Source: Candidatus Daviesbacteria bacterium (GTDB lineage: Bacteria > Patescibacteriota > Microgenomatia > Daviesbacterales > UBA10151). Taken from it: a DNA stretch of 64,000 nucleotides. A program made the position numbers and the translations under genes. Location of the stretch: contig JAQTZF010000001.1 in the NCBI GenBank assembly GCA_028687915.1, positions 482,634-546,633 on the forward strand, in the 5' to 3' direction. Below the pieces are notes generated by a model, which saw only the letters and a list, made by a program, of their open reading frames with translations, was not told where the DNA came from and searched no databases. Every line of letters begins with the position of its first letter. Position 1 is the stretch's first letter. Shown one piece after another: positions 12,421 through 49,697 of this stretch.

Positions 12421-12422
12421 TC

Positions 12423-13592
12423 ATGCTTCGTTTATTATTGCCAAAATCTATTTTAATATGTCTTCGTGATTCTTTAGGTATCCTTCATCCAGAACATGCA
12501 AATGAAGAGCACATTAAAGCAAGTTTAGAATGGTTAAAATTTGCGCAGGATAAAAGTACTGATGGAGGAGTTTCTGCATGGTATTCTTTATCTACAGAAT
12601 GGATGCCTTCTTACATAGAAACAACCGGTTATATAATTAGTACATTCTTACAGTGTTCAAAGTACTTCAATGATCAAGACCTTAAAAAGAGGGCAATTAA
12701 AATGGGGGATTTTCTAATCGATATGCAAAATAAAGATGGTAGTTTTCGAAGACAGGTATTGTCAGTTACAAACGACACAGAACCCATAATCTTTGACACA
12801 GGACAAGATATATTGGGGCTAACAGATTTATACCAACAAACAAAAACTAAAAAATACCTTACGTCCGCAGTTAAGGCAGCAGACTTTTTATGCTCTGTTC
12901 AAGAAAAAGATGGGAGTTGGATAAAGTTTGAATATGGGGGAAAGCCCAGAAGCTATGAAACCAGAACAGCGTGGGCTTTATTAAAAGTATATAAACTAAC
13001 AAATAAAATAAAATATAAAAACTTTGGAGTAAAGAACTTAGATTGGTCTGGTAAAAATCAATTAACAAATGGATGGATTAAATATAACGAGTTGCCTTTC
13101 CCAAACCCATCACAGCCCCTTGTGCACACAATTTCTTATGCAATAGAGGGATTTTTGTGGTCAGGTATATTATTAAATGATAAGAAGTATATTAAGATTG
13201 CTCAAAAATCTGCTGATCAAATTTTGAATTACTTAAATAATAATAATTATATTCCCGGAACATTTAATAAGAACTGGAAATCCAGTGATCGCTATACCTG
13301 TTTGACAGGGAATGCACAAATTTCATTAGTTTGGTTAGAGCTATATAAGATTACTAAAAACATAAAATATTTAGAGGCATCTAAAAAAGTCAATTCTTAT
13401 TTAAAAAGAACACAGGATATTTCTACAAATGATTTAAATATAAGAGGAGGGCTTAAAGGCAGCTTTCCAATCTATGGAGATATTTTAAAATTTAGTGGTT
13501 ATTGTAGGATGGCATATTTAAATTGGGCTGTAAAATTTTTTATAGATTCATTGATAGCAGAGAATATGATAAAAAAAGAAAAGCAATTATGA
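12423..13592 (+). CDS. alpha/alpha-toroid protein with prenyltransferase/squalene-cyclase-type repeats
   Basis: Three spaced repeats LxxxQxxDG(G/S)(W/F): LKFAQDKSTDGGVSAW, LIDMQNKDGSFRRQ, LCSVQEKDGSWIKF. Start ATG at 12423 (the track TTG at 12387 overlaps the upstream gene). Confidence 0.45.
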   Translation: MLRLLLPKSILICLRDSLGILHPEHANEEHIKASLEWLKFAQDKSTDGGVSAWYSLSTEWMPSYIETTGYIISTFLQCSKYFNDQDLKKRAIKMGDFLIDMQNKDGSFRRQVLSVTNDTEPIIFDTGQDILGLTDLYQQTKTKKYLTSAVKAADFLCSVQEKDGSWIKFEYGGKPRSYETRTAWALLKVYKLTNKIKYKNFGVKNLDWSGKNQLTNGWIKYNELPFPNPSQPLVHTISYAIEGFLWSGILLNDKKYIKIAQKSADQILNYLNNNNYIPGTFNKNWKSSDRYTCLTGNAQISLVWLELYKITKNIKYLEASKKVNSYLKRTQDISTNDLNIRGGLKGSFPIYGDILKFSGYCRMAYLNWAVKFFIDSLIAENMIKKEKQL

Positions 13593-14484: not shown

Positions 14485-15195
14485 ATGCATCCAACCTACA
14501 AATACATCCTTTCGCTACTAAACTTGCAAAAAGCAGAAGATAATTCAGTTAAGGTTGTTGATTACGGGTGTGGCAATGGACTATTACTGAGTTACTTAGT
14601 GAAACGAAAAATTAAAGAATATATAGGCTTTGATATTAATAAAGAAAGTATTTTAGAAGCAAAAAGAAAATATCATAATAAAAATATTTCTTTTTTGTTA
14701 CTGAGTCGTAATAAAAAAATGTTTGAAAGAATGAAATCAGTTGACCTACTTGTTCTGATTGGAGTATTGCAATACCTATCAGAAGAAGAGATAGATTGGT
14801 TGTTATTAAGTTCACAAAAGATACTCAAAAAGAAAGGGCGCATTATTATAAGTTGTACTCCTGATAATTGGCCTTATCGGTTATTTAATTTATATAGAAT
14901 TATATTGCCAAATAAATTTATCAATAAGGATCTGTTTATTGATAAAGCTAAAAAGAATGGCTTTGAAGTGTCTGCTTGTACCCAAAAAGGTTTGCTCCTG
15001 GCACCGCTTTTTTCAAATATTATAGTCATTTTTTTTGACTTTATGGATAAGTTAGTTTTTAAGACAAAGGGTAAGCTTGGTCCAGTAGGAATAGTTTCTA
15101 GAAAAGTAATCAATCCTTTACTTATGCTTGAATATTTATTACCTATTAATTATGGGTATACTATGTTTGTTGAATTACAAAAGAATGAAAAATAA
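14485..15195 (+). CDS. class I SAM-dependent methyltransferase
   Basis: Motif I VVDYGCGNGLLLSYL. Confidence 0.6.
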   Translation: MHPTYKYILSLLNLQKAEDNSVKVVDYGCGNGLLLSYLVKRKIKEYIGFDINKESILEAKRKYHNKNISFLLLSRNKKMFERMKSVDLLVLIGVLQYLSEEEIDWLLLSSQKILKKKGRIIISCTPDNWPYRLFNLYRIILPNKFINKDLFIDKAKKNGFEVSACTQKGLLLAPLFSNIIVIFFDFMDKLVFKTKGKLGPVGIVSRKVINPLLMLEYLLPINYGYTMFVELQKNEK

Positions 15196-16450
15196 ATTAT
15201 CAGTTGTGTTAATTTGTGATCATATACAGCGTGAATTAGCTTCATTAAAAATGTTGCGTGAACAAATGCTTTCGGAAAACCTATCAGTTTCAATCATTGG
15301 CAGTTTGGCGGAGGTTAAGCGAATGTATTATCAATTATATCGCCTTAAGCCAGATATTGTTTTCATATCACAAATTCAAGAAAAGATTACTCGTGATATG
15401 GCTAGATATGTAAAGGACTGTGGGGCAATAGTTTGTGTATTACCGGCAGAACTATCATATTCAAGGGCGAACCTCTTTTGGCTTTATAATCAGAGGCTTA
15501 CGTATAATGAATTGGTTGATTACTATTTTTTGCCAGGCGAACAATTTCTGAATGATATATTGGAATTTACAGATATTGATAGAAGAAAGATGGTTGTTGT
15601 GGGTTCTCCAAAAATGGACTTATTAATTTCAAAGTATAAAAAATCATTCTTGAGCAGGGAAGAATTTTGTACTAAATATAAAATACCGTTGGGGAAAAAA
15701 AATATTTTTATCTATACAACATTCGCAGCTAGTACCATAGACTATATTAAAAAAGAAGCAGCCTTTAAAGGTAACGTTAAAGCTACTTTAAGAATCTATC
15801 GTTGTATAAGTGAAACTAAAAAAATTTTCTTAAAGGATATAAATAGAATTTGTATTGATAATCCAGAGTGTAATATTATTATTAAGCCACATCCACTTGA
15901 GGATACGTCAGAGTACCTAAAAATTAAGCACAGTAATTATTATGTTGTTCAAAACGAACTGTTTAATAACACTGTTAGCAGTATAGACTTAGCAATACAT
16001 TGGAACTCTACGGTTGCCACTGAATGTTGGATACAAAGAAAAAAGACTATTCAATATGCACCAATTAGTAAATATTCTGACCTGTTAAGCGAATTTAACC
16101 AATGTAACCCAGTATTTGAAAATTATAAAGAATTAGACTGTGGTATAAAAAAATACTTAGGATGTAATATTGATGCAAAATATCTGAGGTCTCAAAAGGA
16201 TTACTTGAAACTGTGGTATTATCGACTTGATGGTAAAGCAATGAACAGGATATTAAATATCTTAGTAAAAAATATTAAGCCTAACAAATCAAAGCATTAC
16301 TTTAAAAATTATCCATTCTCCTTTAAAGTATATTCTTATGTAGAAAGCCTGTTAGGATTGTCGATTGCCAGGTGGTTAGTTAAACTTGTTAAGAGAGATT
16401 TTCAGCGACAGTATGCACTGGAAAACTATATTCTAGAGGAGGCCAAATGA
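15185..16450 (+). CDS. TagB/TagF/KpsS-like GT-B transferase (candidate nonulosonic-acid or glycerophosphate transferase)
   Basis: VVVGSPKMD (GxPRxD-like) and IIIKPHPLE (HP motif of Glyphos_transf/capsule-synthesis families). Lies immediately upstream of the CMP-NulO synthetase. Confidence 0.4.
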   Translation: MKNKLSVVLICDHIQRELASLKMLREQMLSENLSVSIIGSLAEVKRMYYQLYRLKPDIVFISQIQEKITRDMARYVKDCGAIVCVLPAELSYSRANLFWLYNQRLTYNELVDYYFLPGEQFLNDILEFTDIDRRKMVVVGSPKMDLLISKYKKSFLSREEFCTKYKIPLGKKNIFIYTTFAASTIDYIKKEAAFKGNVKATLRIYRCISETKKIFLKDINRICIDNPECNIIIKPHPLEDTSEYLKIKHSNYYVVQNELFNNTVSSIDLAIHWNSTVATECWIQRKKTIQYAPISKYSDLLSEFNQCNPVFENYKELDCGIKKYLGCNIDAKYLRSQKDYLKLWYYRLDGKAMNRILNILVKNIKPNKSKHYFKNYPFSFKVYSYVESLLGLSIARWLVKLVKRDFQRQYALENYILEEAK

Positions 16451-17247
16451 CAAAGAAAATAGACGAAAGAATTGCATACTGGGAGAATAATTATGTTAGT
16501 TATTGGAAAGATAGAGTTAGTAGTGCATCAGAAAATAAACTTGTTAAAAAGGACATATTGCCTCCAGATATAAAAATATTTCGTAAATATTACAAAAAAG
16601 CTTTAACTTATCTTCGTAATGATTCTTCTAGAATGCTTGATGTTGGAATAGGGTTTGGTAGGTCTGTACCGCTTTATCAAGATTATTTTAAGAACAATAT
16701 CTGGGGAAGTGATATTTCTCAGGGAATGATTGAAGAATGTAAAAAATCTTATCCGCATATTGCTAATCAAGTGGTGGCAGCTTCGGCTGAAAAGCAGCCT
16801 TTTAAGAATAACTTTGTTGATCTGATTGTTTGTTGGGCAACATTTGATGCAACTTATCAAGAAAAAGTATTATGGGAATTTCAAAGACTGTTGGATATTA
16901 ATGGTGTGGTATTAGTAACTGGTAAAAATAATAATTATTGTTTAAATGATAAGAAGGCTTTGGCTGCAGAAATTGGAGCAAGAAATAAGAATCACCCAAA
17001 TTACTTTACAGATATAAAGATTTTAAGGGAAAACATTGAAGATTTTGGTTTTGTAATAAAAGAACTTATTTGTTTTAAAAGACGAGGAGATTTTGCAAAA
17101 GATAATTATAGTAAGAAAGATTCACAAAAGTTTTATGAATATGTATTAATACTTCAGAAAATAAAAGATACAGAAGAAAAGAATTTAAAATTTAAGATTG
17201 CTGATGAGTTTAGCCAAAGTTTTAAAAATAAATATGTACAAAAATAA
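16447..17247 (+). CDS. class I SAM-dependent methyltransferase
   Basis: LDVGIGFGRSV motif I; DLIVCWATF. Confidence 0.55.
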   Translation: MTKKIDERIAYWENNYVSYWKDRVSSASENKLVKKDILPPDIKIFRKYYKKALTYLRNDSSRMLDVGIGFGRSVPLYQDYFKNNIWGSDISQGMIEECKKSYPHIANQVVAASAEKQPFKNNFVDLIVCWATFDATYQEKVLWEFQRLLDINGVVLVTGKNNNYCLNDKKALAAEIGARNKNHPNYFTDIKILRENIEDFGFVIKELICFKRRGDFAKDNYSKKDSQKFYEYVLILQKIKDTEEKNLKFKIADEFSQSFKNKYVQK

Positions 17248-17959
17248 GAAAATTGTTCTAACTATCTGTGCAAGAGGTGGATCGAAAGGATATCCTGGAA
17301 AAAATATTAAATCTATTTTTAGGAAGCCCCTTTTAGCATATTCAATTGAACAAGCTAAAGCTTTAGACTGGGTAGATCGGATAGTTGTTTCAACTGATGA
17401 TCCAAAAATAAAAAAAGTAGCTGAAAAATGGGGAGTTGAGGTTCCTTTTTTAAGACCACCGGAATTAGCTACGGATACAGTATCAAAAATCCCTGTTTTT
17501 CTTCATGCTATACAAGAAGCTGAGAAACACTGGAATGAAAAATATGATATTTGGGTAGACTTAGATGTTACCAGCCCACTACGTTTTTCTGAAGATATTG
17601 AACAAGCAGTTAGATTATTATTTACCCCTGAAACTATATCTGTAATTACTGCAATGGAATCTCATCATAATCCCTACTATAATATGTTAGAGAAGGATAA
17701 TAAAGGGTATATATCTTTATCGAAAAAGCATTCACAATCTGTTGTTAGGAGGCAGGATGCACCCAAAGTATATGCAATGAATGGGAGTATATATGTAATG
17801 TGGTGTGATGAGCTAGTAAAAAGAAAGACTTTTTTTACTGAAAAAACACAATTGTATGTTATGCCTCCTGAGAGATCATTTGATATTGATAATGCAGTAG
17901 ATTTTGAAATAGTTAAGCTATATTTAAAACAAAGAATAAAGTCTTGTGAAACTATATAG
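17234..17959 (+). CDS. neuA: CMP-nonulosonic acid synthetase (acylneuraminate cytidylyltransferase family; NeuA/LegF-like)
   Basis: KKIVLTICARGGSKGYPGKNIKSIFRKPLLAYSIEQA (CTP_transf_3 signature). ATG at 17234. Confidence 0.8.
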   Translation: MYKNKKIVLTICARGGSKGYPGKNIKSIFRKPLLAYSIEQAKALDWVDRIVVSTDDPKIKKVAEKWGVEVPFLRPPELATDTVSKIPVFLHAIQEAEKHWNEKYDIWVDLDVTSPLRFSEDIEQAVRLLFTPETISVITAMESHHNPYYNMLEKDNKGYISLSKKHSQSVVRRQDAPKVYAMNGSIYVMWCDELVKRKTFFTEKTQLYVMPPERSFDIDNAVDFEIVKLYLKQRIKSCETI

Positions 17960-19565
17960 CTGATTTTTTTTGCTTCTTTGAGTAATAATCATCTACCATT
18001 TTCTCTACTATTTTAATTTTTTGTTCTAATGTTTCACCACGTTCATAATCTTTTTTTGTAACTAGTTTACCCAGCCTGTGTTTACCCCGGCAAGCATAAA
18101 GTATATCAAGAGGTGTATTATCAGCTTTTTTGCCGTTAATATCTGTTGTAAAAACTCCTGCTGCATTCCATAAGGTCATTGAAGACCAGTCGTCTAAATT
18201 TCCTGTCCATTTCAATATCCCTTGTTCGATTAGAATGGCTAATTGAGTATTAGGGAGGGGTGTACAAATAGAGATCATGGCATAGACAGCACCTTTTTTC
18301 TCAAGCTTTTGAATATATTTTAATGTTTCCAGTGTTTGTTTTGGAGTTTCACCGGGTAATCCCACCATATTTAATAACTTAACCTCAATCCCTGCTTTGG
18401 CCATTGCTTCTGTTGCGTCTTCAATTGTTTGATTAGAAATTCTTTTTCCAATAGCCTGATATCGAAGTTCCTCATTGCCTGTTTCTGGAGCAATATGTAA
18501 TTGCCGGCACCCTGCCTTATAAATTAATTCTAGTAAATTCATCTTTGATCCTTGGTAAGTTACTGTATGTTTGGCTGCTCTAACAACCAAGTTAGCTCTT
18601 GTAATTGCTGTCCAGATACAACCTTTAAGATTCTTATTTTTTAAGATTCTTCGAGCAGTTTCCTCAACAACATCAAGAGAAACCAGGTAAAGGTCATCAG
18701 TTAAATAGAAATCAACAACACCCAGTCGCCTTAAATATTCCATGTGTTCAATTATTCTTTTTGGTGTAAGCCCTCTCCACATATGGCCAGATACTTCTTG
18801 ATCACAAAAAAAACAGGCATTAGGACAACCGCGTGAAGTAAGCATTGCTAATTGGAATTCGCCTTTTTGTGGCGTAAACTCAGAAAGATGATAGCGCGTT
18901 AAGTCTCCAAGTAATTCGTATTCAGGAATAGGTAGCTTATTAATATCTTCAATTCTATCAGCATGTGTTGGCCAATCCACTTTTGAGGAGGGTTTATTCC
19001 CTAAAAGTAACCTGGTATAACCACGTACAGTATCTTTTAAATAATGAAGTTTTCCTTTATTGTCTTTAAAGACAATTCCGGGAACTTTCTTTAAGAATTC
19101 CTGATTATCCCAGTTTTTAATTAGAATTGGTGTAACAAGCTCGCCTTCACCAACCACCTCATAAGAAAAAATATCACCGTACTTTTCCATTGTTCGAATT
19201 GGTACTGCACTTGGGTGGGGACCACCTAAGAATTGACGATATTTAGATGATTTGGACTTTAATTTAGCTGCGATTCTTGCTGTTTTATCAATAGTGGTAA
19301 TCCATCCAGCCCAACCCACAAAGCCTCCATTAGGCATTAATTCCTGAATTTTGGCTACAGTTTCCTCCTCTGTTAATAGCTCTTTATCTGCATCCAGTAC
19401 AGCTACATCATAACCTTCTTTCTTTAAATATGTAGCAACACATAAAATACCAACAGAAGGAATACTGAATGCGCCACCTCTGGATTTTAGTTCTGGTATA
19501 TCTCTTTCCGCAAATGAATTTGGAGCTACTAGCAATATTTCAGGGGTTGTTGTTTTTTGGACCAT
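17952..19565 (-). CDS. B12-binding domain radical SAM enzyme (class B rSAM-like)
   Basis: N-terminal Rossmann-like B12-binding region, then SRGCPNACFFCDQ (Cx3Cx2C), then a ~130 aa C-terminal extension. Paralog of 28059..29741. Confidence 0.7.
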   Translation of the reverse strand: MVQKTTTPEILLVAPNSFAERDIPELKSRGGAFSIPSVGILCVATYLKKEGYDVAVLDADKELLTEEETVAKIQELMPNGGFVGWAGWITTIDKTARIAAKLKSKSSKYRQFLGGPHPSAVPIRTMEKYGDIFSYEVVGEGELVTPILIKNWDNQEFLKKVPGIVFKDNKGKLHYLKDTVRGYTRLLLGNKPSSKVDWPTHADRIEDINKLPIPEYELLGDLTRYHLSEFTPQKGEFQLAMLTSRGCPNACFFCDQEVSGHMWRGLTPKRIIEHMEYLRRLGVVDFYLTDDLYLVSLDVVEETARRILKNKNLKGCIWTAITRANLVVRAAKHTVTYQGSKMNLLELIYKAGCRQLHIAPETGNEELRYQAIGKRISNQTIEDATEAMAKAGIEVKLLNMVGLPGETPKQTLETLKYIQKLEKKGAVYAMISICTPLPNTQLAILIEQGILKWTGNLDDWSSMTLWNAAGVFTTDINGKKADNTPLDILYACRGKHRLGKLVTKKDYERGETLEQKIKIVEKMVDDYYSKKQKKSAI

Positions 19566-19575
19566 AACTTCGAAA

Positions 19576-20748
19576 TTATATCATTTTGAAAACTTTTGTA
19601 TATGTATTTCCTTCTAAATCATGAGCAGCTACCCCAAAGTTTTTGTTTTTATCTTCAGGTAATAATTTGTATTCCCAGGTATCCTCACTTATTTTAAATA
19701 AGGGTTTCCAGGAATAAATATTTTTACTGTATTTGATAGCTAAAAAAGGCTGTTTGTTAAATAAAGTTTTATTAGTTTTAATGTTAATTTTTTCATTACT
19801 TTTTTTAATATTAAGCTTTAATGGTTTTATAGAAGAAATATTTTGAAATTGTTTGATTGCATCTTTTCCTGATTTATAAAAGAATTTAATTTTTTCTTTC
19901 TTTGAGTATTTTGATATCCACTCCATTACCTTGGTAAAATCTTGTTCTCTATCACGAAAATCATGATCAAAAAGAGAAAGGATAATATCAGAGCCTTTTT
20001 TGGCGTCTGCAAAAGCTTTTGCAATCTCTTCTTCGGTAATAATATTAACATTTGATTTAATATCTAAAGACCTGACAACTAGTCGCTTCATATCTCCTGG
20101 TTTAGTAAGGTCAGCATTTGAAGGGTGATAAGGCACCCAACTATTTGGTGCTTTATGCCATGGAAGTATATCTATTAATTTACTTCCATCAGCTTCAATT
20201 TTCTTCCAATTGATATGATCTCCGTTTCTATTAGAATAATCATAAGGAATCCATTGTTCTAACCAATTAGATTGATCAGTGTCTTCTATTGTACCTCCAG
20301 CCCGATAAGTAATAGGGAAAAAATTACAATCAATAATAAATCTGCATAATTGATTTTCGTATTCACGATTAGTAAACCAATCTGTGCCCCATTCATTACC
20401 GATTCCAGAAATAGAAGCATGATGATAATGCCAACCAATTTCATCACCATATTTTTTTATTTCTTTGCCCCAAGTTTTTAGATAGTGATCATAAACTTTA
20501 TGGTATCCAAAATCATGTTGAATTGGGTTAGTACGAAATCCAGTCCAATTTAACATAAACCATGTAAAAACGGCAGGATTGTTATTACTGTCAGGGAAAG
20601 AATAACGAAATTTATCAGAGAAAACTTTAGACAAAAAAATTCTATCAATATCTTTCCAATTGCCAATAAGCTGAGAGGGAAATTGATAGTTAGGATCAGT
20701 AAAAGGCCCTTCCGTATCAATACAAAAAACAACAAAAACTCTGCCCAT
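19576..20748 (-). CDS. hypothetical protein, possible divergent polysaccharide deacetylase (CE4/NodB-like) fold
   Basis: FCIDTEGPF resembles the TFDDGP motif and WHYHH resembles the HSxxHP metal motif, but weakly. Co-oriented with the rSAM and SDR genes. Confidence 0.25.
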   Translation of the reverse strand: MGRVFVVFCIDTEGPFTDPNYQFPSQLIGNWKDIDRIFLSKVFSDKFRYSFPDSNNNPAVFTWFMLNWTGFRTNPIQHDFGYHKVYDHYLKTWGKEIKKYGDEIGWHYHHASISGIGNEWGTDWFTNREYENQLCRFIIDCNFFPITYRAGGTIEDTDQSNWLEQWIPYDYSNRNGDHINWKKIEADGSKLIDILPWHKAPNSWVPYHPSNADLTKPGDMKRLVVRSLDIKSNVNIITEEEIAKAFADAKKGSDIILSLFDHDFRDREQDFTKVMEWISKYSKKEKIKFFYKSGKDAIKQFQNISSIKPLKLNIKKSNEKINIKTNKTLFNKQPFLAIKYSKNIYSWKPLFKISEDTWEYKLLPEDKNKNFGVAAHDLEGNTYTKVFKMI

Positions 20749-20751
20749 TTA

Positions 20752-21537
20752 TTATTTGCTCCAGCCTGGATCCCAAAGTTGTCTGGTATAACCAGCATCT
20801 ACTATTAAATTTGTACCTGTGATTGCATTGGCTCTCTTTGAAAGAAAAAATAAAACAGGATCAGCTATTTCAATTGGTTCGACACTTCGTCCTAATGGAG
20901 TTCTTGCTTCAAAGCGTCGTAGAATTTCTTTAGGTTTTGGGTCTACGTATTGTGCTTTATTTTTTTCTGTATTGACGTTACCTGGCGATACCATGTTTAC
21001 TCTAATATTATAGGGAGCAAGTTCCATGGCATAAGCGACTGTTTTCCCCCACAAATCGCCTTTTGCAGAAGTATACAAAACCACATCCTGTGCTGCCATG
21101 ATAGTTTCGATAGACCCAATATTAACTATTGATCCACCATTTTTCATTCGGCGATAAGAGAATTCAGTTAAAACAAGAGCTGTTTCAGAATGAGCAGTCA
21201 TCATCTTGCGAAATGATCGTATGCTTCTTCCACCATGACTTGAGTCAGAACCTAATAATCCTGCATTGTTTACCAGTCCATCAAGATTGGTAACATGACC
21301 AAGAGTTAGATGCACCAAGTCTTCATTTGCAGCGTCGCTTGAAAAAAATTCATAATCATGGCCAATTTTTAAAGAAGAATCTCTTAATCTCTGTTCTAGC
21401 TCTGATCCCTGAAAATCTTTTAAATCAATGCCGATAGGACTTGCGCCCTCTTTAAGAAGTTCTTCAAATATACAAGATCCAATCCCACTTGCAGCTCCTG
21501 ATACAATTATTGTTTTATTTTTTAGTTCTAGGTTCAT
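20752..21537 (-). CDS. short-chain dehydrogenase/reductase (classical SDR)
   Basis: TGxxxGxG (VSGAASGIGS) and YTSAK (YxxxK). Confidence 0.75.
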   Translation of the reverse strand: MNLELKNKTIIVSGAASGIGSCIFEELLKEGASPIGIDLKDFQGSELEQRLRDSSLKIGHDYEFFSSDAANEDLVHLTLGHVTNLDGLVNNAGLLGSDSSHGGRSIRSFRKMMTAHSETALVLTEFSYRRMKNGGSIVNIGSIETIMAAQDVVLYTSAKGDLWGKTVAYAMELAPYNIRVNMVSPGNVNTEKNKAQYVDPKPKEILRRFEARTPLGRSVEPIEIADPVLFFLSKRANAITGTNLIVDAGYTRQLWDPGWSK

Positions 21538-21583
21538 GTAGAGATTGACTTTTGCGTTATTTTATCATAAAACATTAAATACA

Positions 21584-22636
21584 ATGATAATCAAAATTAG
21601 TAAGAATAAAATAGGAAAAGGAAACTCTATATTTATAATTGCAGAAGCTGGGGTAAACCATAATGGTAAACTTGATCTGGCTTTAAAATTAGTTGATGTT
21701 GCAGCAAGTGCTGGTGCAGATGCAGTGAAATTTCAAACTTTTAAAGCTGAACAAGTAGTTACAGATAAAGGTGAAATGGCTGATTACCAAAAAAAGAATT
21801 TGGGAAAAGTTGAATCCCAACAAGAGATGCTAAAGAAGCTGGAACTACATGAAGAATTTTACCAGCCAATTATAAAAAGATGTAAAGAAAGAAAGATTAT
21901 GTTTCTTTCTACACCTCATGGTGGAGTTGAAAGCGTAGATTTTTTGGAGAGTTTAGGAGTGGAGGCTTTTAAGGTTGGTTCTGGGGATTTAACTAATTAT
22001 CTATTATTGAACAGACTAGCGAGAACTCATAAACCTGTAATTTTAAGTTCAGGAATGGCAACTTTGAAAGAAGTGATTAACGCTGTGGATTTTATTAAGA
22101 GTAAAGGATGTAAGCAATTAGCAATGCTTCATTGCACAACTGATTACCCTTGTCCTCCGGAAAAAGTAAATATGGCATCAATGGTTACAATGATGAAAAA
22201 ATTAGATATACCAGTGGGTTATTCTGACCATACTCAGGGTAATAGTGCAGCTATTATGGCAACAACGCTAGGTGCAACTATTTATGAATGTCATTTTACG
22301 GTAAATAAAAAGTTACCAGGACCGGATCACATTGCTTCAGCCAGTCCTGAAGAACTTAAGGTTAGAATAAATAGTATTCGAGAGGTTGAAATAATGATGG
22401 GGAATGCAAAAAAGATTCCTAATGAAAGTGAAATAAAATTAATTAATATTGTAAGAAGAAGCTTGGTGGCAGCATCTGATTTATCAAAGGGACATAAATT
22501 AACAATCCAGGACTTAGAGGCGAAAAGACCCGGGGATGGTATCTCTCCATCTAAATATGAACAATTTTTGGGAAAGATTTTAAAAAAATCAATACAAAAA
22601 AATCAACAAATTAAAAACTCCGATATTAAGCACTAG
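21584..22636 (+). CDS. neuB: nonulosonic acid synthase (NeuB/LegI/PseI family)
   Basis: IFIIAEAGVNHNGKLDLALKLVDVAASAGADAVKFQTF; C-terminal SAF-like domain. The internal ATG is more plausible than the track TTG. Confidence 0.85.
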   Translation: MIIKISKNKIGKGNSIFIIAEAGVNHNGKLDLALKLVDVAASAGADAVKFQTFKAEQVVTDKGEMADYQKKNLGKVESQQEMLKKLELHEEFYQPIIKRCKERKIMFLSTPHGGVESVDFLESLGVEAFKVGSGDLTNYLLLNRLARTHKPVILSSGMATLKEVINAVDFIKSKGCKQLAMLHCTTDYPCPPEKVNMASMVTMMKKLDIPVGYSDHTQGNSAAIMATTLGATIYECHFTVNKKLPGPDHIASASPEELKVRINSIREVEIMMGNAKKIPNESEIKLINIVRRSLVAASDLSKGHKLTIQDLEAKRPGDGISPSKYEQFLGKILKKSIQKNQQIKNSDIKH

Positions 22637-22682: not shown

Positions 22683-23831
22683 ATGGGAAAAAGAAAGATT
22701 GCATATGTTTCTGGCACCAGAGCAGATTATGGTTTAATGACTCCGATACTTCGGGCTGTAGCAAATAGTTTTAAATTAGATCTCCAGCTTTATGTTACAG
22801 GTATTCATTTGATGCCAAAATTTGGAGAAACTGCAATCTTTGTTGAAAAAGAATTTCCATCAACAAAAAGAATTAAATCAATTTTTAAAACAGATGAGAG
22901 ATTTAGTATGGTTGGTTTTTCAGGAGAGTATATTAATTTATTAAATAAAATTTTTCAAAAAAACCGACCTGATATGGTCTTGATTTTAGGGGACAGAATA
23001 GAAATGCTTTGTACAGCAATGGTTTGTCTATATTTAGGGATTCCTACTGCACATATTCATGGTGGTGAGAAGACTTATGCTGTGGATGAGGTGACACGTC
23101 ATGCAATTACCAAGATAAGTAGCTTACATTTTCCAGCAACAAAAGAGTCTGCAGAAAGAATTATAAAAATGGGAGAAGAAAAATGGCGTGTACATGTAGT
23201 TGGTGCACCTGCTTTGGATATTATTTTAAATAAAAAATTACCAACAAAAAAAGATATTTTTAAGACGATTGGATTGGACCCAAAACAACAATTTATTTTA
23301 ATTACTCAGCATCCTGTTAGTGAAGAAATAGCTATTGCAGCTCAACAGATGAGAGAAACTCTTGAAGCAGCCAAAAGTTTTAATATGCCAATTATAATTA
23401 CATATCCTCATTCTGACCCAGGAGGAAGAAGGATTATTGAGGTTATAGAAAAATATAAGAATAATCCATTGTTCCATATCTTCCCAAGTATTAAATATGA
23501 AAGTTTCTTAGCATTAGAAAGAGAGGCAGCAGTTTGGATAGGTAACAGCAGTGGGGCAATGATTGAGTCATCTTCTTTTAAAACACCTGTTGTGAATATC
23601 GGGACAAGACAAATCGGAAGACAGCGAGGAAAAAATGTTATTGATGTAAGTTATAATCGTGAAGAAATTGTAAAAGCTATTAAAAAATCCTTGACGGATA
23701 AGTCTTATCTTGCTAAGCTGCAAACTATCAAAAACCTCTGGGGTGATGGTAAAACAGGACCAAGGGTTGCCAGGATTTTGGAAGAGGTTGAGATTAATTC
23801 AAAACTGCTCACAAAACAAATAACATACTAA
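22683..23831 (+). CDS. neuC: hydrolysing UDP-sugar 2-epimerase (NeuC/LegG family)
   Basis: KIAYVSGTRADYGLMTPIL and an Epimerase_2 fold (HIHGGE). Confidence 0.8.
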   Translation: MGKRKIAYVSGTRADYGLMTPILRAVANSFKLDLQLYVTGIHLMPKFGETAIFVEKEFPSTKRIKSIFKTDERFSMVGFSGEYINLLNKIFQKNRPDMVLILGDRIEMLCTAMVCLYLGIPTAHIHGGEKTYAVDEVTRHAITKISSLHFPATKESAERIIKMGEEKWRVHVVGAPALDIILNKKLPTKKDIFKTIGLDPKQQFILITQHPVSEEIAIAAQQMRETLEAAKSFNMPIIITYPHSDPGGRRIIEVIEKYKNNPLFHIFPSIKYESFLALEREAAVWIGNSSGAMIESSSFKTPVVNIGTRQIGRQRGKNVIDVSYNREEIVKAIKKSLTDKSYLAKLQTIKNLWGDGKTGPRVARILEEVEINSKLLTKQITY

Positions 23832-25357
23832 TGCATGATAATTTTAAAAATTGGAAACTGCCTAAATTTAATAAATCTGGTATGACTAGATGGAATTGGA
23901 TGTGCCAGTATTCAGAAAATCTAAAATTGGGTAAAAATACAGACATAGGTGCATTCACTTATATAAATGCTAATTTCGGGGTTGATATAGAGGATTATGT
24001 AGAAATCGGGTCTGGTTGCAGTATTTATTCCAACAATACAATTGATGAAATAACTGGCAAAGTTATCATTAAAAAAAATGCTAAAATTGGAACTCATTGT
24101 ACTATTATGCCTGGAGTGACAATAGGAGAAAATGCAGTTATTGGTGCATATAGTTTTGTTAAAAATAATATTCCTGCAAATAGTGTAGCCTATGGTGTTC
24201 CTGCTAAAGTTATAAAAAAAGCAGCTGTTTCTGATGGCAAAATACAAATTGCTAAGCCCTATATTGATGATGAAGACAAGAAAGCTGTAATGGATGTATT
24301 AGAATCTGGTTGGCTTTCTTTGGGGCCAAAATATAAAGAGTTTGAACAAAACATGGCCTCATATGTTGGAACAAAGTATGCTTGTGCTGTCTCAAGTGGA
24401 ACATCAGGACTTCATCTGGCAGTAATAGCTTTAGGTTTAAAAGAGGGTGATGAGGTTATTACTACACCTTTCTCTTTTGTAGCATCATCGAATTGCCTTT
24501 TATATGAAAAAGTTAAACCAGTGTTTGTAGATATAGAAGAAGAAACTTTTAATTTAGACCCGGATAAAATTGAATCAGCAATTACAAAAAAAACAAAAGC
24601 AATTTTGGTAGTACATATTTTTGGCCAATCTGCACGAATGGATAAAATAATGAAAATTGCCAGAAAATATAAGTTAAAAGTAATTGAAGATTCTTGTGAA
24701 AGTTTAGGTGCCAGGTTTCAAGATAAGATGACAGGAACCTTTGGTGACATTGGTGTATATTCTTTTTATCCAAATAAGCAAATGACAACAGGTGAGGGGG
24801 CGGTAATTGTAACTAACTCAAAGCGGCTTTATGAATTATGTGATAGTTTAAGAAATCAGGGTAGAGGTCTTAGAGAATCTAAAAAAGGGAAGGATTGGGA
24901 TTGGTTGATGAGTGAGAGGTTAGGTTATAACTACCGGATGGATGAGATGAGTGCAGCACTAGGAATTACTCAGCTAAAAAAAATAGATTCGATGATAGAG
25001 AAAAGACGAAGGATCGTTGGGCTTTATAAAAAACATCTAGAAGATATAAAAAACCTGATTATTCCCACTGTAGGTAAAGATAGAACTCATACCTGGTTTG
25101 TTTATGTTATTCAGGTAATAAATGGTAAAAGGGATCAATTGATGAGTGACTTATCTTCCGCGGGGATTCAAGTTAGGCCTTATTTACCAGCGATTCATTT
25201 ACAAAAGTTTATGAAAAAGATGTTTGGTTTTAAAAAGGGTGATTTTCCAGTTTGTGAAAAGATTTCTTCACAAACGCTAGCAATCCCTTTTTATATTGGT
25301 TTAGATGAAGATAATATTAAATATATTGCAGCAAGGATTAGAAAAATACTTAAATGA
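23831..25357 (+). CDS. bifunctional fusion: hexapeptide-repeat N-acetyltransferase (LegH/PglD-like) + DegT/PLP sugar aminotransferase (LegC/PglE-like)
   Basis: Residues 1-130 carry LbH repeats (IGSGCSIYSN, IGTHCTIMPGVTIGENAVIGAYSFV). Residues 140-508 are DegT-like, with the PLP lysine in YSFYPNKQMTTGEGAVI. It is a single uninterrupted ORF. Confidence 0.75.
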   Translation: MHDNFKNWKLPKFNKSGMTRWNWMCQYSENLKLGKNTDIGAFTYINANFGVDIEDYVEIGSGCSIYSNNTIDEITGKVIIKKNAKIGTHCTIMPGVTIGENAVIGAYSFVKNNIPANSVAYGVPAKVIKKAAVSDGKIQIAKPYIDDEDKKAVMDVLESGWLSLGPKYKEFEQNMASYVGTKYACAVSSGTSGLHLAVIALGLKEGDEVITTPFSFVASSNCLLYEKVKPVFVDIEEETFNLDPDKIESAITKKTKAILVVHIFGQSARMDKIMKIARKYKLKVIEDSCESLGARFQDKMTGTFGDIGVYSFYPNKQMTTGEGAVIVTNSKRLYELCDSLRNQGRGLRESKKGKDWDWLMSERLGYNYRMDEMSAALGITQLKKIDSMIEKRRRIVGLYKKHLEDIKNLIIPTVGKDRTHTWFVYVIQVINGKRDQLMSDLSSAGIQVRPYLPAIHLQKFMKKMFGFKKGDFPVCEKISSQTLAIPFYIGLDEDNIKYIAARIRKILK

Positions 25358-26346
25358 GTAACTTTAAAGCTCTTTTCAAAAATAAAAAAATCTTAGTAAC
25401 AGGAGGAACTGGTTCTATTGGCAGTGAGATTGTTAGACAATTAATTAACTTTAATCCAAAACAGATAAGAATTTATTCTCGTGATGAATCTAAGCAATAT
25501 CACTTGCAGCATGACCTAAATTATTTTACTCACAACAAAGATGTACTCCGTTTTTTAATTGGTGATATTAGAGATAAAGATAGATTAGACAGAGCTTTTA
25601 ATGATATAGATATTGTTTTTCATGCAGCTGCTTTAAAACATGTTCCTTTTTGTGAAGACAATCCTTTTGAAGCAACGAAAACTAATGTACATGGAACACA
25701 AAATGTTTTGGATTTAGCAATTAATCACAGTGTTGAAAAAGTAATTGCAATTTCCTCTGATAAAGCGGTTAATCCAAATACTTTTATGGGAATTACAAAA
25801 TTAATGATGGAAAGGATGGTAATAGCAGCAGCTAATTATTCAGGTCAAACTAAGACGAAATTTGCAGCAGTACGTTTTGGAAATGTAATAAATTCAAGAG
25901 GTTCGGTAATTCCGTTGTGGATTGATCAAATAAAGAAAGGTGGCCCTGTTACTGTAACTGATAAAAAAATGGAAAGATATTTTATGACAATAAAAGATGC
26001 GGTAGATCTTATTTTTTTATCAACATCCAAAATGCTGGGAAGTGAAATATTTGTTCTAAAAATGCCAAAATATAATATTTATGAGTTAGCACAAGAAGTA
26101 ATAAATCGATATGGGAATGGCAAAAAAATTGCAATAAAAATCACAGGAGTAAGAAAGAGAGAAAAATTGGATGAGAGATTGTTTACAGATGAAGAAGAAC
26201 AGTTAATAATTGATTCCGGACTTTTTAATATTATACAGCCAAGTCCAGAAGAATATAAAAAACGTTTATTAAAATATAAAGTTGGTAAAAAAATGAATAG
26301 CACAAAAACCTCAGATATCTTTGATTCTCTTCCAAAACTAGGTTAA
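25354..26346 (+). CDS. UDP/GDP-GlcNAc 4,6-dehydratase (Polysacc_synt_2; PseB/LegB/PglF-like, short soluble form)
   Basis: KKILVTGGTGSIGSEIVRQL; about 330 aa, typical of FlaA1/PseB-type enzymes. Confidence 0.75.
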   Translation: MSNFKALFKNKKILVTGGTGSIGSEIVRQLINFNPKQIRIYSRDESKQYHLQHDLNYFTHNKDVLRFLIGDIRDKDRLDRAFNDIDIVFHAAALKHVPFCEDNPFEATKTNVHGTQNVLDLAINHSVEKVIAISSDKAVNPNTFMGITKLMMERMVIAAANYSGQTKTKFAAVRFGNVINSRGSVIPLWIDQIKKGGPVTVTDKKMERYFMTIKDAVDLIFLSTSKMLGSEIFVLKMPKYNIYELAQEVINRYGNGKKIAIKITGVRKREKLDERLFTDEEEQLIIDSGLFNIIQPSPEEYKKRLLKYKVGKKMNSTKTSDIFDSLPKLG

Positions 26347-26354
26347 CATTTATT

Positions 26355-27941
26355 TTAATTATAACGTTTTAAAAGGTTACTTACTTTTAACAGTATCTTT
26401 AATAGGAATGGGTATTGATTATTAATTGAAATAAATCCTTTTGTTGTTATGATGATAGAAATAATATAATCAAAGATCCCCAAGGTTATTCCCAATAATA
26501 AAATAATCAAACTGTAGATAATTCCGGTAATCAAAAATTGAATGAAGCCTTTTGGTGAAAACCCACTTAATTGAACTAATAAATATAAACTTAGTGAGAA
26601 TAACAACATAATTGTATAAAGTTTTACTGGTAGGTGAATACTTATTTCGTGTCGGATAATTCTAATAAACAAAATAATTGATAATAAATATATTAATGTA
26701 CTCGCGATGGCGACTCCTATTATTCCATAAAGATTAATTAATACAACGCTTATAATAATATTTGTTACTGCAATTATTAATGATGCTCTCATCCTTTCTT
26801 TAATTTTTCCCATTCCACAGGTAATAGTTGTTAAATAGCTTGATAATAAGGCAAGAATGGCTCCAAAAGCCATGATTCTTAATGGTGTTTCAATAAGACC
26901 AACCCACTTTACTCCAAATATTAGTTGAGTTGTCGCGGAAGGGAAAAGCATTATAAATAAAGAAAAATAAAAGCCCACAAATGAAATAATTTTTATACTA
27001 TTGCTTAACAGCTCACTCATCTTAACTTTTTCACCTTCCATAAGATGTGAAACTAAGGGAAGTAGTAAATTATTAATAGGGGAAAGAAATATACTGGGAA
27101 TTGATATTAAAGGAACAATGATATTATAAATACCCACTTCTCTAACATTTTTAAATAATGTTAAGAAAAAATTATCAGTGAAAGTAATAAAGGTATATAT
27201 GGATGTAGTGATTAATGTTGGTATGGCAAACTTAAGCATAGTGGAAAATAACTTTTTATCCCAGACTAATCTTTTTTCTCCAAATGAAGAGTTTTTATTT
27301 AATAGATATGTATAAATGATGGAACAGATTATGTGAGCTAAGGCCCATGAAAGAGCAAAGAATATAATATTAGAATAATCAAAAATAATAAAAAATATGG
27401 AAAAGATTAATGCAAGTAATAATCTGGAAAATTGAATAGAGGAATAGTATTTTTCCTGTTGTAGACCAGTGAACATCTTATATAAAGCCTCCAAGAAGCT
27501 GTTGGCAATAAAATAAATACAAAACAAATAAATTAGAGTTTGTGCTTCCGGTACTTTGAAATAATTAATGCTTAACCATGGTGCAATAAGGACTAGTAAT
27601 AATGTCAGAATAATTGATGTTCCAACCTCAATAATTTGTGCATATTTATAGATCATCCAACTCTGTTCAAAATCACCTTGCTTTATTAGTTTTGGCACAA
27701 GGTATGTGACGCTATAGCCGAACCCTAAATCTTTATAGGTAGTAAGAATTCCAAAGAAAGCCAATAAGGCGTAAAATAAACCATACATTTCAATTGATAA
27801 ATTATTAGAATATATTATTCGTAATACATACCCGAGAGGAGATGTTAATAGAGAGAAAAAAAGAACAGTTGAAGTGCCTCTAAAAATTCTGTTAGACAAG
27901 TTTTCTTTATTTTGCATAAGGAAGATAAAATTTTTACTCAA
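26355..27941 (-). CDS. wzx: Wzx-like polysaccharide flippase (MOP/MATE superfamily)
   Basis: 528 aa with about 14 TM helices and polysacc_synt-like topology. Confidence 0.6.
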   Translation of the reverse strand: MSKNFIFLMQNKENLSNRIFRGTSTVLFFSLLTSPLGYVLRIIYSNNLSIEMYGLFYALLAFFGILTTYKDLGFGYSVTYLVPKLIKQGDFEQSWMIYKYAQIIEVGTSIILTLLLVLIAPWLSINYFKVPEAQTLIYLFCIYFIANSFLEALYKMFTGLQQEKYYSSIQFSRLLLALIFSIFFIIFDYSNIIFFALSWALAHIICSIIYTYLLNKNSSFGEKRLVWDKKLFSTMLKFAIPTLITTSIYTFITFTDNFFLTLFKNVREVGIYNIIVPLISIPSIFLSPINNLLLPLVSHLMEGEKVKMSELLSNSIKIISFVGFYFSLFIMLFPSATTQLIFGVKWVGLIETPLRIMAFGAILALLSSYLTTITCGMGKIKERMRASLIIAVTNIIISVVLINLYGIIGVAIASTLIYLLSIILFIRIIRHEISIHLPVKLYTIMLLFSLSLYLLVQLSGFSPKGFIQFLITGIIYSLIILLLGITLGIFDYIISIIITTKGFISINNQYPFLLKILLKVSNLLKRYN

Positions 27942-30522: not shown

Positions 30523-30524
30523 AG

Positions 30525-49687: not shown

Positions 49688-49697
49688 CAAAACAAAT

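What the first reader, a model, noticed from the sequence alone, without database searches (positions are those of the whole stretch)
17952..21537. Minus-strand operon: B12-rSAM enzyme + unknown CE4-like protein + SDR, abutting the NulO genes
A class-B-like radical SAM enzyme (Cx3Cx2C with a B12-binding domain), a 390-aa protein of unknown function with only faint deacetylase-like motifs, and an SDR sit tail-to-tail with neuA and head-to-head with neuB. In natural-product pathways B12-rSAMs perform C-methylation or other radical chemistry on sugars (GenK, Fom3 and similar). With a deacetylase-like partner and a reductase, the trio looks like a tailoring module for the nonulosonic acid or another nucleotide sugar. 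I cannot place this combination among the sugar-modification routes I know.
Basis: inference. Interest (0 to 1): 0.7.

Follow-up and report, generated by a model that had tools for sequence, protein, structure and literature searches.

The report
Sialic-acid-like sugar tailoring genes, CPR bacterium
Three real genes (a vitamin-B12-type radical enzyme, an unannotated deacetylase-fold protein and a reductase) sit inside the pathway for a sialic-acid-like surface sugar in a tiny uncultured bacterium; they probably decorate that sugar in a way not yet described, but the chemistry is inferred, not shown.

Summary
The window comes from a Candidatus Daviesbacteria (CPR) genome. At 17952-21537 (-) lie three tightly packed genes. 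They encode a 537-aa B12-binding-domain radical SAM protein, a 390-aa protein with no Pfam or NCBIfam match, and a classical SDR. A complete legionaminic-acid-type nonulosonic acid (NulO) pathway flanks them.

The 390-aa protein models confidently (pLDDT 95) as a CE4/NodB-type barrel plus a beta-sandwich. Its family is large and unnamed. In 37 of 45 informative loci a member lies within 10 kb of NeuB, CMP-transferase or NeuC genes. It is often adjacent to, or fused with, a SAM methyltransferase; the window's copy of that partner is at 16447-17247.

The radical SAM enzyme belongs to a very small orthogroup. All five orthologue loci carry a CMP-transferase gene next to it or one gene away. Four of the five have an oxidoreductase beside it (SDR or 2-hydroxyacid dehydrogenase). 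Its nearest relatives outside the orthogroup also lie in glycan loci.

So "NulO tailoring" is supported, but the trio as such recurs in only one other contig. The chemistry is inferred: de-N-acetylation followed by N-methylation, plus a radical step and a redox step. I found no description of such genes in the searchable literature.

The parts
17952..19565 (-). rSAM1: B12-binding-domain radical SAM enzyme, 537 aa
   Evidence: PF02310 and PF04055. CPNACFFC cluster motif at 247. GG (114-115) and GEGE (139-142) cobalamin-domain motifs. AF2 model pLDDT 92; its best folds are AprD4, TsrM, MgmA, OxsB, CysS and TokK. No NCBIfam equivalog is reached. Orthologues were found only in L001/L005, L074, L076 and L078.
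19576..20748 (-). UNK390: unannotated CE4/NodB-fold protein with a C-terminal beta-sandwich; predicted metal-dependent de-N-acetylase
20752..21537 (-). Classical SDR oxidoreductase, 261 aa
   Evidence: adh_short_C2 141 bits. Cofactor and catalytic motifs are intact. An orthologue occupies the same position in L074 (460 bits). It is absent in L001 and is replaced by a 2-Hacid_dh in L076 and L078.
16447..17247 (+). Class-I SAM methyltransferase (MT266), the conserved partner of UNK390
   Evidence: Methyltransf_11/25. Orthologues (226-363 bits) lie adjacent to or near UNK390 in L001, L003, L007, L065, L074 and L076. In other lineages a methyltransferase domain is fused to the C-terminus of UNK390.
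17198..17959 (+). CMP-NulO cytidylyltransferase (LegF/NeuA-like)
   Evidence: PF02348 70 bits; PseF model 145 bits, below cutoff. Convergent with rSAM1 with an 8-bp overlap. It is next to the rSAM1 orthologue or one gene away in all five orthologue loci.
21545..22636 (+). NulO synthase (NeuB/LegI type)
   Evidence: TIGR03569 423 bits, above cutoff 399.65; PseI model below cutoff.
22683..23831 (+). Hydrolysing UDP-sugar 2-epimerase (NeuC/LegG type)
   Evidence: TIGR03568 400.9 bits, above cutoff 235.9.
23831..25357 (+). Fused hexapeptide N-acetyltransferase and DegT-type aminotransferase (PglD/LegH + PglE/LegC functions)
   Evidence: Hexapep plus DegT_DnrJ_EryC1 403 bits. PseC and LegC models 335 and 290 bits, both below cutoff.
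25354..26346 (+). UDP-GlcNAc 4,6-dehydratase (PseB/PglF/LegB type)
   Evidence: Polysacc_synt_2 357 bits; PseB model 313 bits, below cutoff.
15128..16450 (+). BFO_1060-like surface carbohydrate biosynthesis protein; candidate NulO transferase
   Evidence: NF046086 136.7 bits and TIGR04396 115 bits, both below cutoff. Syntenic in L065 and L076.
28059..29741 (+). rSAM2: second B12-binding radical SAM enzyme, 560 aa
   Evidence: PF02310 67 bits and PF04055 84 bits. 26% identical to rSAM1. Orthologues occupy the same place in L001 and L074.
26355..27941 (-). Wzx-type flippase between the NulO core and rSAM2
   Evidence: Polysacc_synt 87 bits.

Best explanation
The three genes are accessory (tailoring) genes of a legionaminic-acid-type NulO pathway. 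The pathway lies inside a 64-kb, methylation-rich surface-glycan island of a CPR (Daviesbacteria) bacterium.

Shown. The core pathway is complete without them: dehydratase, aminotransferase/acetyltransferase fusion, NeuC, NeuB and CMP-transferase. The 390-aa protein is a cytoplasmic CE4/NodB-fold enzyme with an intact, invariant acid/His constellation at the barrel mouth. Its family is a marker of NulO clusters across bacteria and archaea and is habitually paired or fused with a class-I SAM methyltransferase. rSAM1 has a radical SAM core and a cobalamin-type domain. It belongs to a glycan-locus clade, and its orthologues always travel with a CMP-transferase and usually with an NAD(P) oxidoreductase.

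Inferred. UNK390 removes an N-acetyl group from the NulO or from its 2,4-diacetamido-hexose or CMP-activated form. N5 is the likeliest site, because N5 is inherited from GlcNAc and cannot otherwise be varied. The partner methyltransferase (16447-17247) then methylates the freed amine. This is the logic of NodB/NodS and of the fused NDST enzymes. rSAM1 performs a cobalamin-dependent radical step on the same sugar, most likely methylation of an unactivated carbon. The SDR sets the oxidation state or configuration of a neighbouring carbinol.

My confidence in 'NulO tailoring module' is about 0.75. In 'UNK390 is a de-N-acetylase feeding an N-methyltransferase' it is about 0.4. In 'rSAM1 is a C-methyltransferase' it is about 0.4.

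For: rSAM1 orthologues are flanked by NeuB, UNK390, CMP-transferase and MT266 in L001, L074 and L076. In L078, from a 65%-GC organism, the orthologue is flanked by a 2-Hacid_dh and a CMP-transferase. Non-orthologous B12-rSAMs lie next to UNK390 or the CMP-transferase in Paceibacterota, Omnitrophota and Geobacteraceae loci. L007's and L043's rSAMs would rank about 3rd and 18th among out-group hits when compared with 1.84 billion representatives. Other near out-group members sit in glycan loci. GG and GE cobalamin-domain motifs are conserved (motif definition from PMC9204698). An SDR acting on a NulO has precedent in EpaB/AciE (PMC12053666).
Confidence: 0.55

Rival explanations
1. Radical lyase plus reductase, on the AprD4/AprD3 or DesII model. 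rSAM1 would not be a methyltransferase. It would abstract hydrogen from a carbinol carbon and eliminate the neighbouring hydroxyl or amine, the amine possibly freed by UNK390. That would give a ketone, which the SDR (or the 2-hydroxyacid dehydrogenase in other genomes) reduces. The net result would be a deoxy or deamino NulO, or such a hexose precursor.
For: AprD4 is the best PDB match by sequence (42 bits) and by fold (E 2.4e-20, TMq 0.61). An oxidoreductase accompanies rSAM1 in 4 of 5 orthologue loci, and it belongs to two unrelated families (SDR or 2-Hacid_dh). That pattern looks like non-orthologous displacement of a required reductase. From my own knowledge, the pathway intermediate UDP-4-amino-4,6-dideoxy-GlcNAc has the same 3-OH/4-NH2 arrangement as DesII's substrate.
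Against: The AprD4 family model scores 50.9 bits against a cutoff of 500. TsrM, MgmA, OxsB, CysS and TokK match almost as well. The cobalamin-domain GG and GE motifs are conserved. The L001 relative has rSAM1 without any adjacent reductase.
Confidence: 0.22
2. Acetamidino route of the PtmG/PtmH kind. UNK390 plus the methyltransferase would convert the 5-N-acetyl group to an N-methyl-acetimidoyl group, as proposed for Campylobacter and Legionella legionaminic acid.
For: The gene position (between the aminotransferase and NeuB, with a methyltransferase beside it) mirrors ptmG-ptmH as described in the SugarBase preprint and PMC3766260. A Legionella bononiensis locus has the methyltransferase + UNK390 pair.
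Against: UNK390 hits no NCBIfam model, so it also misses the N-acetyl sugar amidotransferase model. That PtmG/PseA belong to that model is my recollection; the preprint calls PtmG an amidotransferase. Searches seeded with Campylobacterota and Legionella homologues returned no C. jejuni or L. pneumophila protein. A CE4-type barrel has no ATP or PP-loop site with which to activate an amide.
Confidence: 0.07
3. The genes act on something other than the NulO. The target could be another sugar of the island's glycan or the lipid-linked oligosaccharide. The SDR could be an independent C4/C8 epimerising oxidoreductase of the EpaB/AciE kind. On this reading the adjacency reflects island packing rather than a shared substrate.
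For: The island holds about 18 glycosyltransferases and 9 other methyltransferases. Out-group rSAMs sit in glycan loci without visible NulO genes. Many CE4 enzymes act on polymers or lipid-linked sugars, e.g. ArnD. SDRs weakly similar to this one sit next to CMP-transferase genes in many loci.
Against: UNK390 tracks NulO genes in 37 of 45 loci across very different taxa and glycan islands. rSAM1 orthologues are next to the CMP-transferase or one gene away in 5 of 5 loci, including a 65%-GC organism with a different neighbourhood. All three proteins are soluble and cytoplasmic.
Confidence: 0.16

Closest known systems
NodB / NodS (Nod-factor biosynthesis) and the fused N-deacetylase/N-sulfotransferase NDST
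   Different: There is no sequence similarity to PF01522. The context is a NulO pathway, not chitooligosaccharide or heparan. N-methylation here is inferred, not shown.
CE4-superfamily deacetylases and deformylases (HP0310 PgdA, insect chitin deacetylase, Agd3, ArnD, BDI_3119)
   Different: 9-15% identity. HxH replaces H(S/T)xxH. There is an extra C-terminal beta-sandwich. The protein is cytoplasmic. The substrate is unknown.
Cobalamin-dependent radical SAM methyltransferases acting on sugars or CMP-linked substrates (GenK, Fom3; solved relatives TsrM, TokK, CysS, MgmA)
   Same: The domain architecture, the CxxxCxxC motif, the GG and GE motifs and the fold all match. From my own knowledge, Fom3 acts on a CMP-conjugate, and here the neighbour is a CMP-transferase.
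   Different: 15-20% identity. No family model is reached. No product is known. I had no GenK or Fom3 sequences to compare directly.
AprD4 / AprD3 (radical SAM diol dehydratase plus NADPH reductase; aminoglycoside C3' deoxygenation)
   Same: It is the best solved match to rSAM1. It pairs an rSAM with a dehydrogenase/reductase on an aminosugar.
   Different: The AprD4 family model scores 50.9 against a cutoff of 500. The reductase is not universal and belongs to two different families.
PtmG/PtmH (Cj1324, Cj1325/6) of Campylobacter and ORF28/ORF8 of Legionella pneumophila
   Same: Accessory genes placed inside a Leg cluster that alter the N5 substituent and then methylate it.
   Different: UNK390 matches no amidotransferase model, and no Campylobacter jejuni or L. 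pneumophila homologue was recovered.
EpaA/EpaB and AciE (Acinetobacter NulO 8-epimerisation)
   Same: A ~260-aa adh_short_C2 SDR acts on a NulO together with a CTP_transf_3 enzyme (PMC12053666).
   Different: I could not compare sequences. The window's SDR is only generically similar (about 30%) to the SDRs I could search.

Membership tests
Class B (cobalamin-binding-domain) radical SAM enzymes | CxxxCxxC [4Fe-4S]/SAM motif within a Radical_SAM (PF04055) core | tested here: met
   C247, C251 and C254 are invariant in the 49-sequence alignment. PF04055 scores 74.1 bits against a cutoff of 29.5.
Class B (cobalamin-binding-domain) radical SAM enzymes | N-terminal Rossmann-type B12-binding domain (PF02310) with GG and GE motifs | tested here: met
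   PF02310 scores 54.8 bits against a cutoff of 32.1. G114-G115 are invariant and G139-E-G-E142 nearly invariant. The motifs are as defined in PMC9204698.
Class B (cobalamin-binding-domain) radical SAM enzymes | Actual cobalamin binding and methyl transfer | not testable with these tools
   AprD4 has the same domain but no cobalamin, so sequence and fold cannot decide this.
AprD4 family radical SAM diol dehydratase (NF033070) | Score at or above the curated family cutoff | tested here: not met
   50.9 bits against a cutoff of 500.
   80.0/481, 76.9/578, 79/750 and 62.9/360 bits (score/cutoff). The similarity is at superfamily level only.
Carbohydrate esterase family 4 / NodB homology domain | Distorted (beta/alpha)7 barrel fold | tested here: met
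Carbohydrate esterase family 4 / NodB homology domain | Sequence membership (PF01522 or related models) | tested here: not met
   No Pfam or NCBIfam hit. hhalign against a bona fide PF01522 protein gives probability 0.09.
Carbohydrate esterase family 4 / NodB homology domain | Asp-His-His metal triad plus catalytic Asp and His | tested here: inconclusive
   D11/E13, H107/H109 and H262/D263 are invariant and lie at strand ends. The spacing differs from the CE4 motifs, and I made no residue-level structural superposition.
PseA/PtmG-type N-acetyl sugar amidotransferase | Match to the NCBIfam amidotransferase model, or homology to Cj1324 or L. pneumophila ORF28 | tested here: not met
   No NCBIfam hit at E<=1e-3. 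No C. jejuni or L. pneumophila proteins appeared in homologue searches. The Cj1324 sequence itself was not available to me.
Legionaminic-acid-type NulO pathway (versus pseudaminic) | NeuB/LegI-type synthase and NeuC/LegG-type hydrolysing 2-epimerase present; PseG absent | tested here: met
   TIGR03569 423 bits (cutoff 399.65). TIGR03568 400.9 bits (cutoff 235.9). PseI is below cutoff. No GT28/PseG-like ORF was found in the window.
Legionaminic-acid-type NulO pathway (versus pseudaminic) | Dehydratase, aminotransferase and cytidylyltransferase reaching equivalog cutoffs | tested here: inconclusive
   PseB 313/407, PseC 335/423, LegC 291/420 and PseF 145/206 bits (score/cutoff): all below cutoff. 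The stereochemistry of the product therefore cannot be assigned.
Classical SDR | TGxxxGxG cofactor motif, NNAG, and Ser...YxxxK catalytic residues | tested here: met
   SGAASGIG at 13, NNAG at 90, S142 and Y155-TSA-K159. adh_short_C2 scores 141 bits.

The most novel reading that the evidence does not exclude
[quoted passage not shown] It would work with a previously unrecognised NulO-specific de-N-acetylase family. The product would be a sialic-acid-like sugar with a modified carbon skeleton or side chain, for example a C-methylated 'higher-carbon' ulosonic acid. Masses of that kind have been reported in Magnetospirillum without any assigned enzyme (SugarBase preprint). This would be the first radical SAM chemistry in NulO biosynthesis. 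Because the glycan island sits in a CPR genome, it would also imply that these minimal bacteria obtain cobalamin in order to decorate their surface.
Probability: 0.25. Interest if true: 0.85.

Novelty: new variant of a known kind. Interest (0 to 1): 0.6.

Why it matters
NulOs (sialic, legionaminic and pseudaminic acids) set surface charge, phage susceptibility and host recognition. Their N-acyl and skeleton variants are chemically catalogued, but the enzymes that make them are mostly unassigned.

The 390-aa protein defines a large family with no Pfam, NCBIfam or informative source name. Two homologue searches returned 363 and 2,638 proteins. The family marks NulO clusters in CPR bacteria, Omnitrophota, SAR11, Nitrosopumilaceae, Woesearchaeota, a Legionella isolate and others. 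Assigning it a function would annotate thousands of genes. It could also explain N5-variant NulOs, which logically require removal of the GlcNAc-derived acetyl group.

I found no paper linking radical SAM enzymes with nonulosonic acids in the searchable library. If rSAM1 acts on the sugar, it opens a new type of glycan chemistry. It would also give a testable candidate route to unexplained NulO masses seen in environmental surveys.

Tried and rejected
1. An exact-sequence lookup of the 390-aa protein found nothing. Its source was identified through the homologue search instead.

2. A profile search of PDB sequences with the UNK390 alignment gave only noise.

3. I tried to show that UNK390 is PtmG. 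The Cj1324 sequence was not obtainable, and Howard 2009 is not held. Searches seeded with the Campylobacterota (L054) and Legionella bononiensis (L019) homologues returned only unnamed metagenome proteins. I therefore reject membership provisionally.

4. The AFDB fold library was unavailable.

5. The metagenome scan with rSAM1 as a single protein only re-found the L001 contig. An alignment query would have reached further, and the cap is now spent.

6. The promoter/terminator scan gave no more sites than shuffled sequence.

7. tblastn of UNK390 against plasmids found no match. The SDR against phages gave only generic hits at about 30% identity.

8. hhalign of the family against a true PF01522 protein gave no relationship.

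9. My phmmer test for a fused methyltransferase, using MT266 as probe, failed: the fused domains are not MT266-like. The fusion was confirmed with Pfam instead.

10. The Magnetospirillum lead: the locus of the Magnetospirillum sp. family member (L072) has a methyltransferase and UNK390 next to NeuB but no rSAM. It therefore gives no support for linking rSAMs to the C10 ulosonic acids.

Full report
**Observation.** They are separated by 10 and 3 bp.

- The first protein carries PF02310 (B12-binding, 54.8 bits) and PF04055 (Radical_SAM, 74.1 bits), with C247-x3-C251-x2-C254.
- The second has no Pfam or NCBIfam match.
- The third is a classical SDR with intact SGAASGIG, NNAG and YTSAK motifs.
- The cluster converges on a CTP_transf_3 cytidylyltransferase gene (17198-17959, 8-bp overlap) and diverges from NeuB (21545-22636).
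- The 390-aa protein is 100% identical to a hypothetical protein of a Candidatus Daviesbacteria MAG (CPR/Microgenomates, 1.1-Mb contig).

**Surroundings.** Downstream of NeuB lie four more genes. NeuB itself scores 423 bits on TIGR03569, above cutoff.

- A NeuC-type hydrolysing 2-epimerase (TIGR03568, 401 bits, above cutoff).
- A fused hexapeptide acetyltransferase and DegT aminotransferase.
- A PseB/PglF-type 4,6-dehydratase.
- A Wzx flippase, followed by a second B12-rSAM (28059-29741) that is 26% identical to the first.

With the cytidylyltransferase this makes a complete legionaminic-type route. NeuC is present and no PseG was found. So the three genes, together with the methyltransferase at 16447-17247, are extras. 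The stereochemistry of the product cannot be assigned, because the dehydratase, aminotransferase and cytidylyltransferase all fall below their equivalog cutoffs.

The whole 64-kb window is a single glycan island. It holds about 18 glycosyltransferases, nine class-I/FkbM/MT_24 methyltransferases, Wzx and ABC-2 exporters, and an SAH hydrolase. It holds no cobalamin gene.

**The 390-aa protein.** An alignment of 41 homologues shows invariant D11-T-E13-G-P, D102, W106-H107-Y-H109, R149, D170, D229 and H262-D263-x-R265.

- AlphaFold2 gives a confident model (pLDDT 95, pTM 0.93) of a beta/alpha barrel plus a C-terminal beta-sandwich. The invariant residues sit at the C-terminal ends of successive barrel strands.
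- There is no sequence-level link to CE4.
- The protein has no signal peptide or membrane segment.

So it is a deacetylase-fold, probably metal-dependent, cytoplasmic enzyme. By sequence it is not a CE4 family member.

**Distribution and context of that family.** Homologue searches found hundreds to thousands of relatives. Almost all are unnamed, and many are ~650-aa fusions to a class-I methyltransferase, with the UNK390 domain N-terminal and the methyltransferase C-terminal.

A scan of species-representative genomes returned 67 loci. They come from CPR groups, Omnitrophota, Nitrosopumilaceae, Woesearchaeota, Pelagibacteraceae, Legionella bononiensis, Desulfobacterota, Saccharibacteria and others.

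I scored their six-frame ORFs with the window's proteins.

| Homologue class | Informative loci | NeuB, CMP-transferase or NeuC within 10 kb |
|---|---|---|
| At least 140 bits to UNK390 | 45 | 37 |
| More distant homologues | 8 | 0 |

An MT266-like methyltransferase is directly adjacent in 10 loci. The conserved unit across phyla is therefore the deacetylase-fold protein plus a methyltransferase inside a NulO cluster. In this window the partner methyltransferase is at 16447-17247 on the opposite strand.

**The radical SAM enzyme.** No NCBIfam equivalog is approached. BchE scores 80 against a cutoff of 481, ApyD 79/750, HpnJ 77/578 and AprD4 51/500.

A search of 1.84 billion representative proteins gave 21,275 hits at E<=1e-3. 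Only two full-length close clusters appeared (56% and 47% identity), plus fragments. The next hits score about 150 bits at about 32% identity.

| Locus | Relation to the window | Arrangement around the rSAM1 orthologue |
|---|---|---|
| L001/L005 | Microgenomates; UNK390 76% identical | NeuB, UNK390, rSAM1, CMP-transferase; no SDR |
| L074 | UNK390 75% identical | NeuB, SDR, UNK390, rSAM1, CMP-transferase, MT266; the same trio as here |
| L076 | UNK390 58% identical | NeuB, UNK390, 2-Hacid_dh, rSAM1, CMP-transferase, MT266 |
| L078 | 65%-GC organism; rSAM1 47% identical | methyltransferase, rSAM1, 2-Hacid_dh, CMP-transferase; contig ends, no UNK390 visible |

So rSAM1 travels with a CMP-transferase in 5 of 5 loci (counting the window). 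In 4 of 5 it also has an NAD(P) oxidoreductase, drawn from one of two unrelated families.

B12-rSAMs that are not orthologous (23-28% identity) lie next to UNK390 or the CMP-transferase in Paceibacterota (L007), Omnitrophota (L025) and Geobacteraceae (L043) loci. The L007 and L043 enzymes would rank about 3rd and 18th among all out-group hits. Three other near out-group members sit in glycan loci with GT2, GT4, flippase, YfhO or TylF genes.

The AF2 model of rSAM1 (pLDDT 92) matches AprD4 (E 2.4e-20), TsrM, MgmA, OxsB, CysS and TokK about equally. The GG (114-115) and GEGE (139-142) motifs, which contact cobalamin in solved class-B enzymes, are conserved. This is consistent with cobalamin binding but does not prove it.

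**How it most likely works.**

Shown: a complete Leg-type core; four accessory genes; a deacetylase-fold enzyme whose family marks NulO clusters and is coupled to a methyltransferase; and an rSAM from a glycan-locus clade coupled to a CMP-transferase and a reductase.

Inferred:
- N5 of a NulO carries the acetyl group of the starting GlcNAc, so any other N5 substituent requires de-N-acetylation. This is established pathway logic, from my own knowledge.
- UNK390 is the natural candidate for that step.
- Its fusion or adjacency to a methyltransferase reproduces the NodB/NodS and NDST logic: free the amine, then modify it.
- rSAM1 most likely methylates an unactivated carbon, which is the majority chemistry of this class.
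- The SDR adjusts a carbinol. NulO-acting SDRs have precedent in EpaB/AciE.

The main rival uses the AprD4/AprD3 or DesII precedent. In that reading rSAM1 eliminates a hydroxyl or amine to give a ketone, which the SDR or the 2-hydroxyacid dehydrogenase reduces. The alternation between two reductase families fits this rival better than it fits methylation.

A PtmG/PtmH-type acetamidino route is positionally analogous. It is not supported by homology. L074 also contains a PIG-L deacetylase and a formyltransferase in its Leg core, so UNK390 need not be the only deacetylase in such clusters.

**Novelty and verdict.** I found no paper combining 'radical SAM' with 'nonulosonic'. The five papers combining 'radical SAM' with 'pseudaminic acid' looked unrelated by title and abstract; I did not open them. 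The UNK390 family has no Pfam or NCBIfam model and essentially no informative names.

The finding is real. Its general interpretation, NulO tailoring, is supported by comparative context. The proposed three-gene unit needs redrawing as two overlapping modules:
- UNK390 plus a methyltransferase, which is widespread.
- rSAM1 plus an oxidoreductase plus a CMP-transferase, which is rare.

The chemistry remains inference. I rate it a new variant of a known kind of system, with moderate-to-high interest.

Noticed in passing
window 1-64000: The entire window is one surface-glycan island in a ~1.1-Mb CPR genome. It holds about 18 glycosyltransferases (GT2, GT4, PMT_2), nine SAM methyltransferases, two B12-rSAMs, and both a Wzx flippase (26355-27941) and an ABC-2 Wzm/Wzt pair (29761-31307). 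That is an unusually large investment for a minimal genome.
   Followed up: partly
window 48728-50993: An S-adenosylhomocysteine hydrolase (49698-50993) and a PfkB-family kinase (48728-49687) sit inside the glycan island. This fits local recycling of SAH from the many methyltransferases.
   Followed up: no
window 28059-29741: A second B12-binding radical SAM gene lies beside the flippase. It is 26% identical to the first and is conserved at the same place in L001 and L074. The L001 relative has a third B12-rSAM (L001 15291-16700) that is absent from this window.
   Followed up: partly
window 23831-25357: One 508-aa protein fuses a hexapeptide N-acetyltransferase to a DegT aminotransferase, so two consecutive pathway steps are in one polypeptide. 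The fusion is conserved in L001 and L074.
   Followed up: no
L074 3492-6060 and 12408-17170: A 75%-identical relative has a PIG-L deacetylase and a formyltransferase inserted in the Leg core, which suggests an N-formyl NulO. It also has a second, Pse-like gene set with a GT28 (PseG-like) gene and HisH/HisF paralogues, of the kind I recall accompanying acetamidino formation.
   Followed up: no
L078 4314-8354: In a 65%-GC organism, a methyltransferase, an rSAM1 orthologue (47% identity), a 2-hydroxyacid dehydrogenase and a CTP_transf_3 gene form one co-directional operon. The module appears to have moved between distant lineages.
   Followed up: partly
L055-L069 (Zixibacteria, Ignavibacteria and other loci): Distant relatives of the 390-aa protein (under 140 bits) have no NulO genes within 10 kb. 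They probably form a subfamily with a different substrate.
   Followed up: no
L019 11172-13172 and L072 11197-13095: In Legionella bononiensis and a Magnetospirillum MAG, the methyltransferase + UNK390 pair is followed by a ~630-670-aa protein. It is Glyphos_transf in L072 and has no Pfam hit in L019. It may be the transferase for the modified sugar.
   Followed up: no
window 21537-21584: The SDR start and the longest NeuB ORF start (TTG at 21545) are only 7 bp apart. The NeuB model alignment begins at residue 29 and there is an ATG at residue 14, so the real divergent intergenic region is probably about 46 bp. That is still very short for two promoters.
   Followed up: no
window 12387-13592: A 401-aa ORF shows weak GH127 / glucuronyl C5-epimerase / pectate-lyase-like matches. 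It lies among the methyltransferases upstream of the NulO genes and is syntenic in L076.
   Followed up: no
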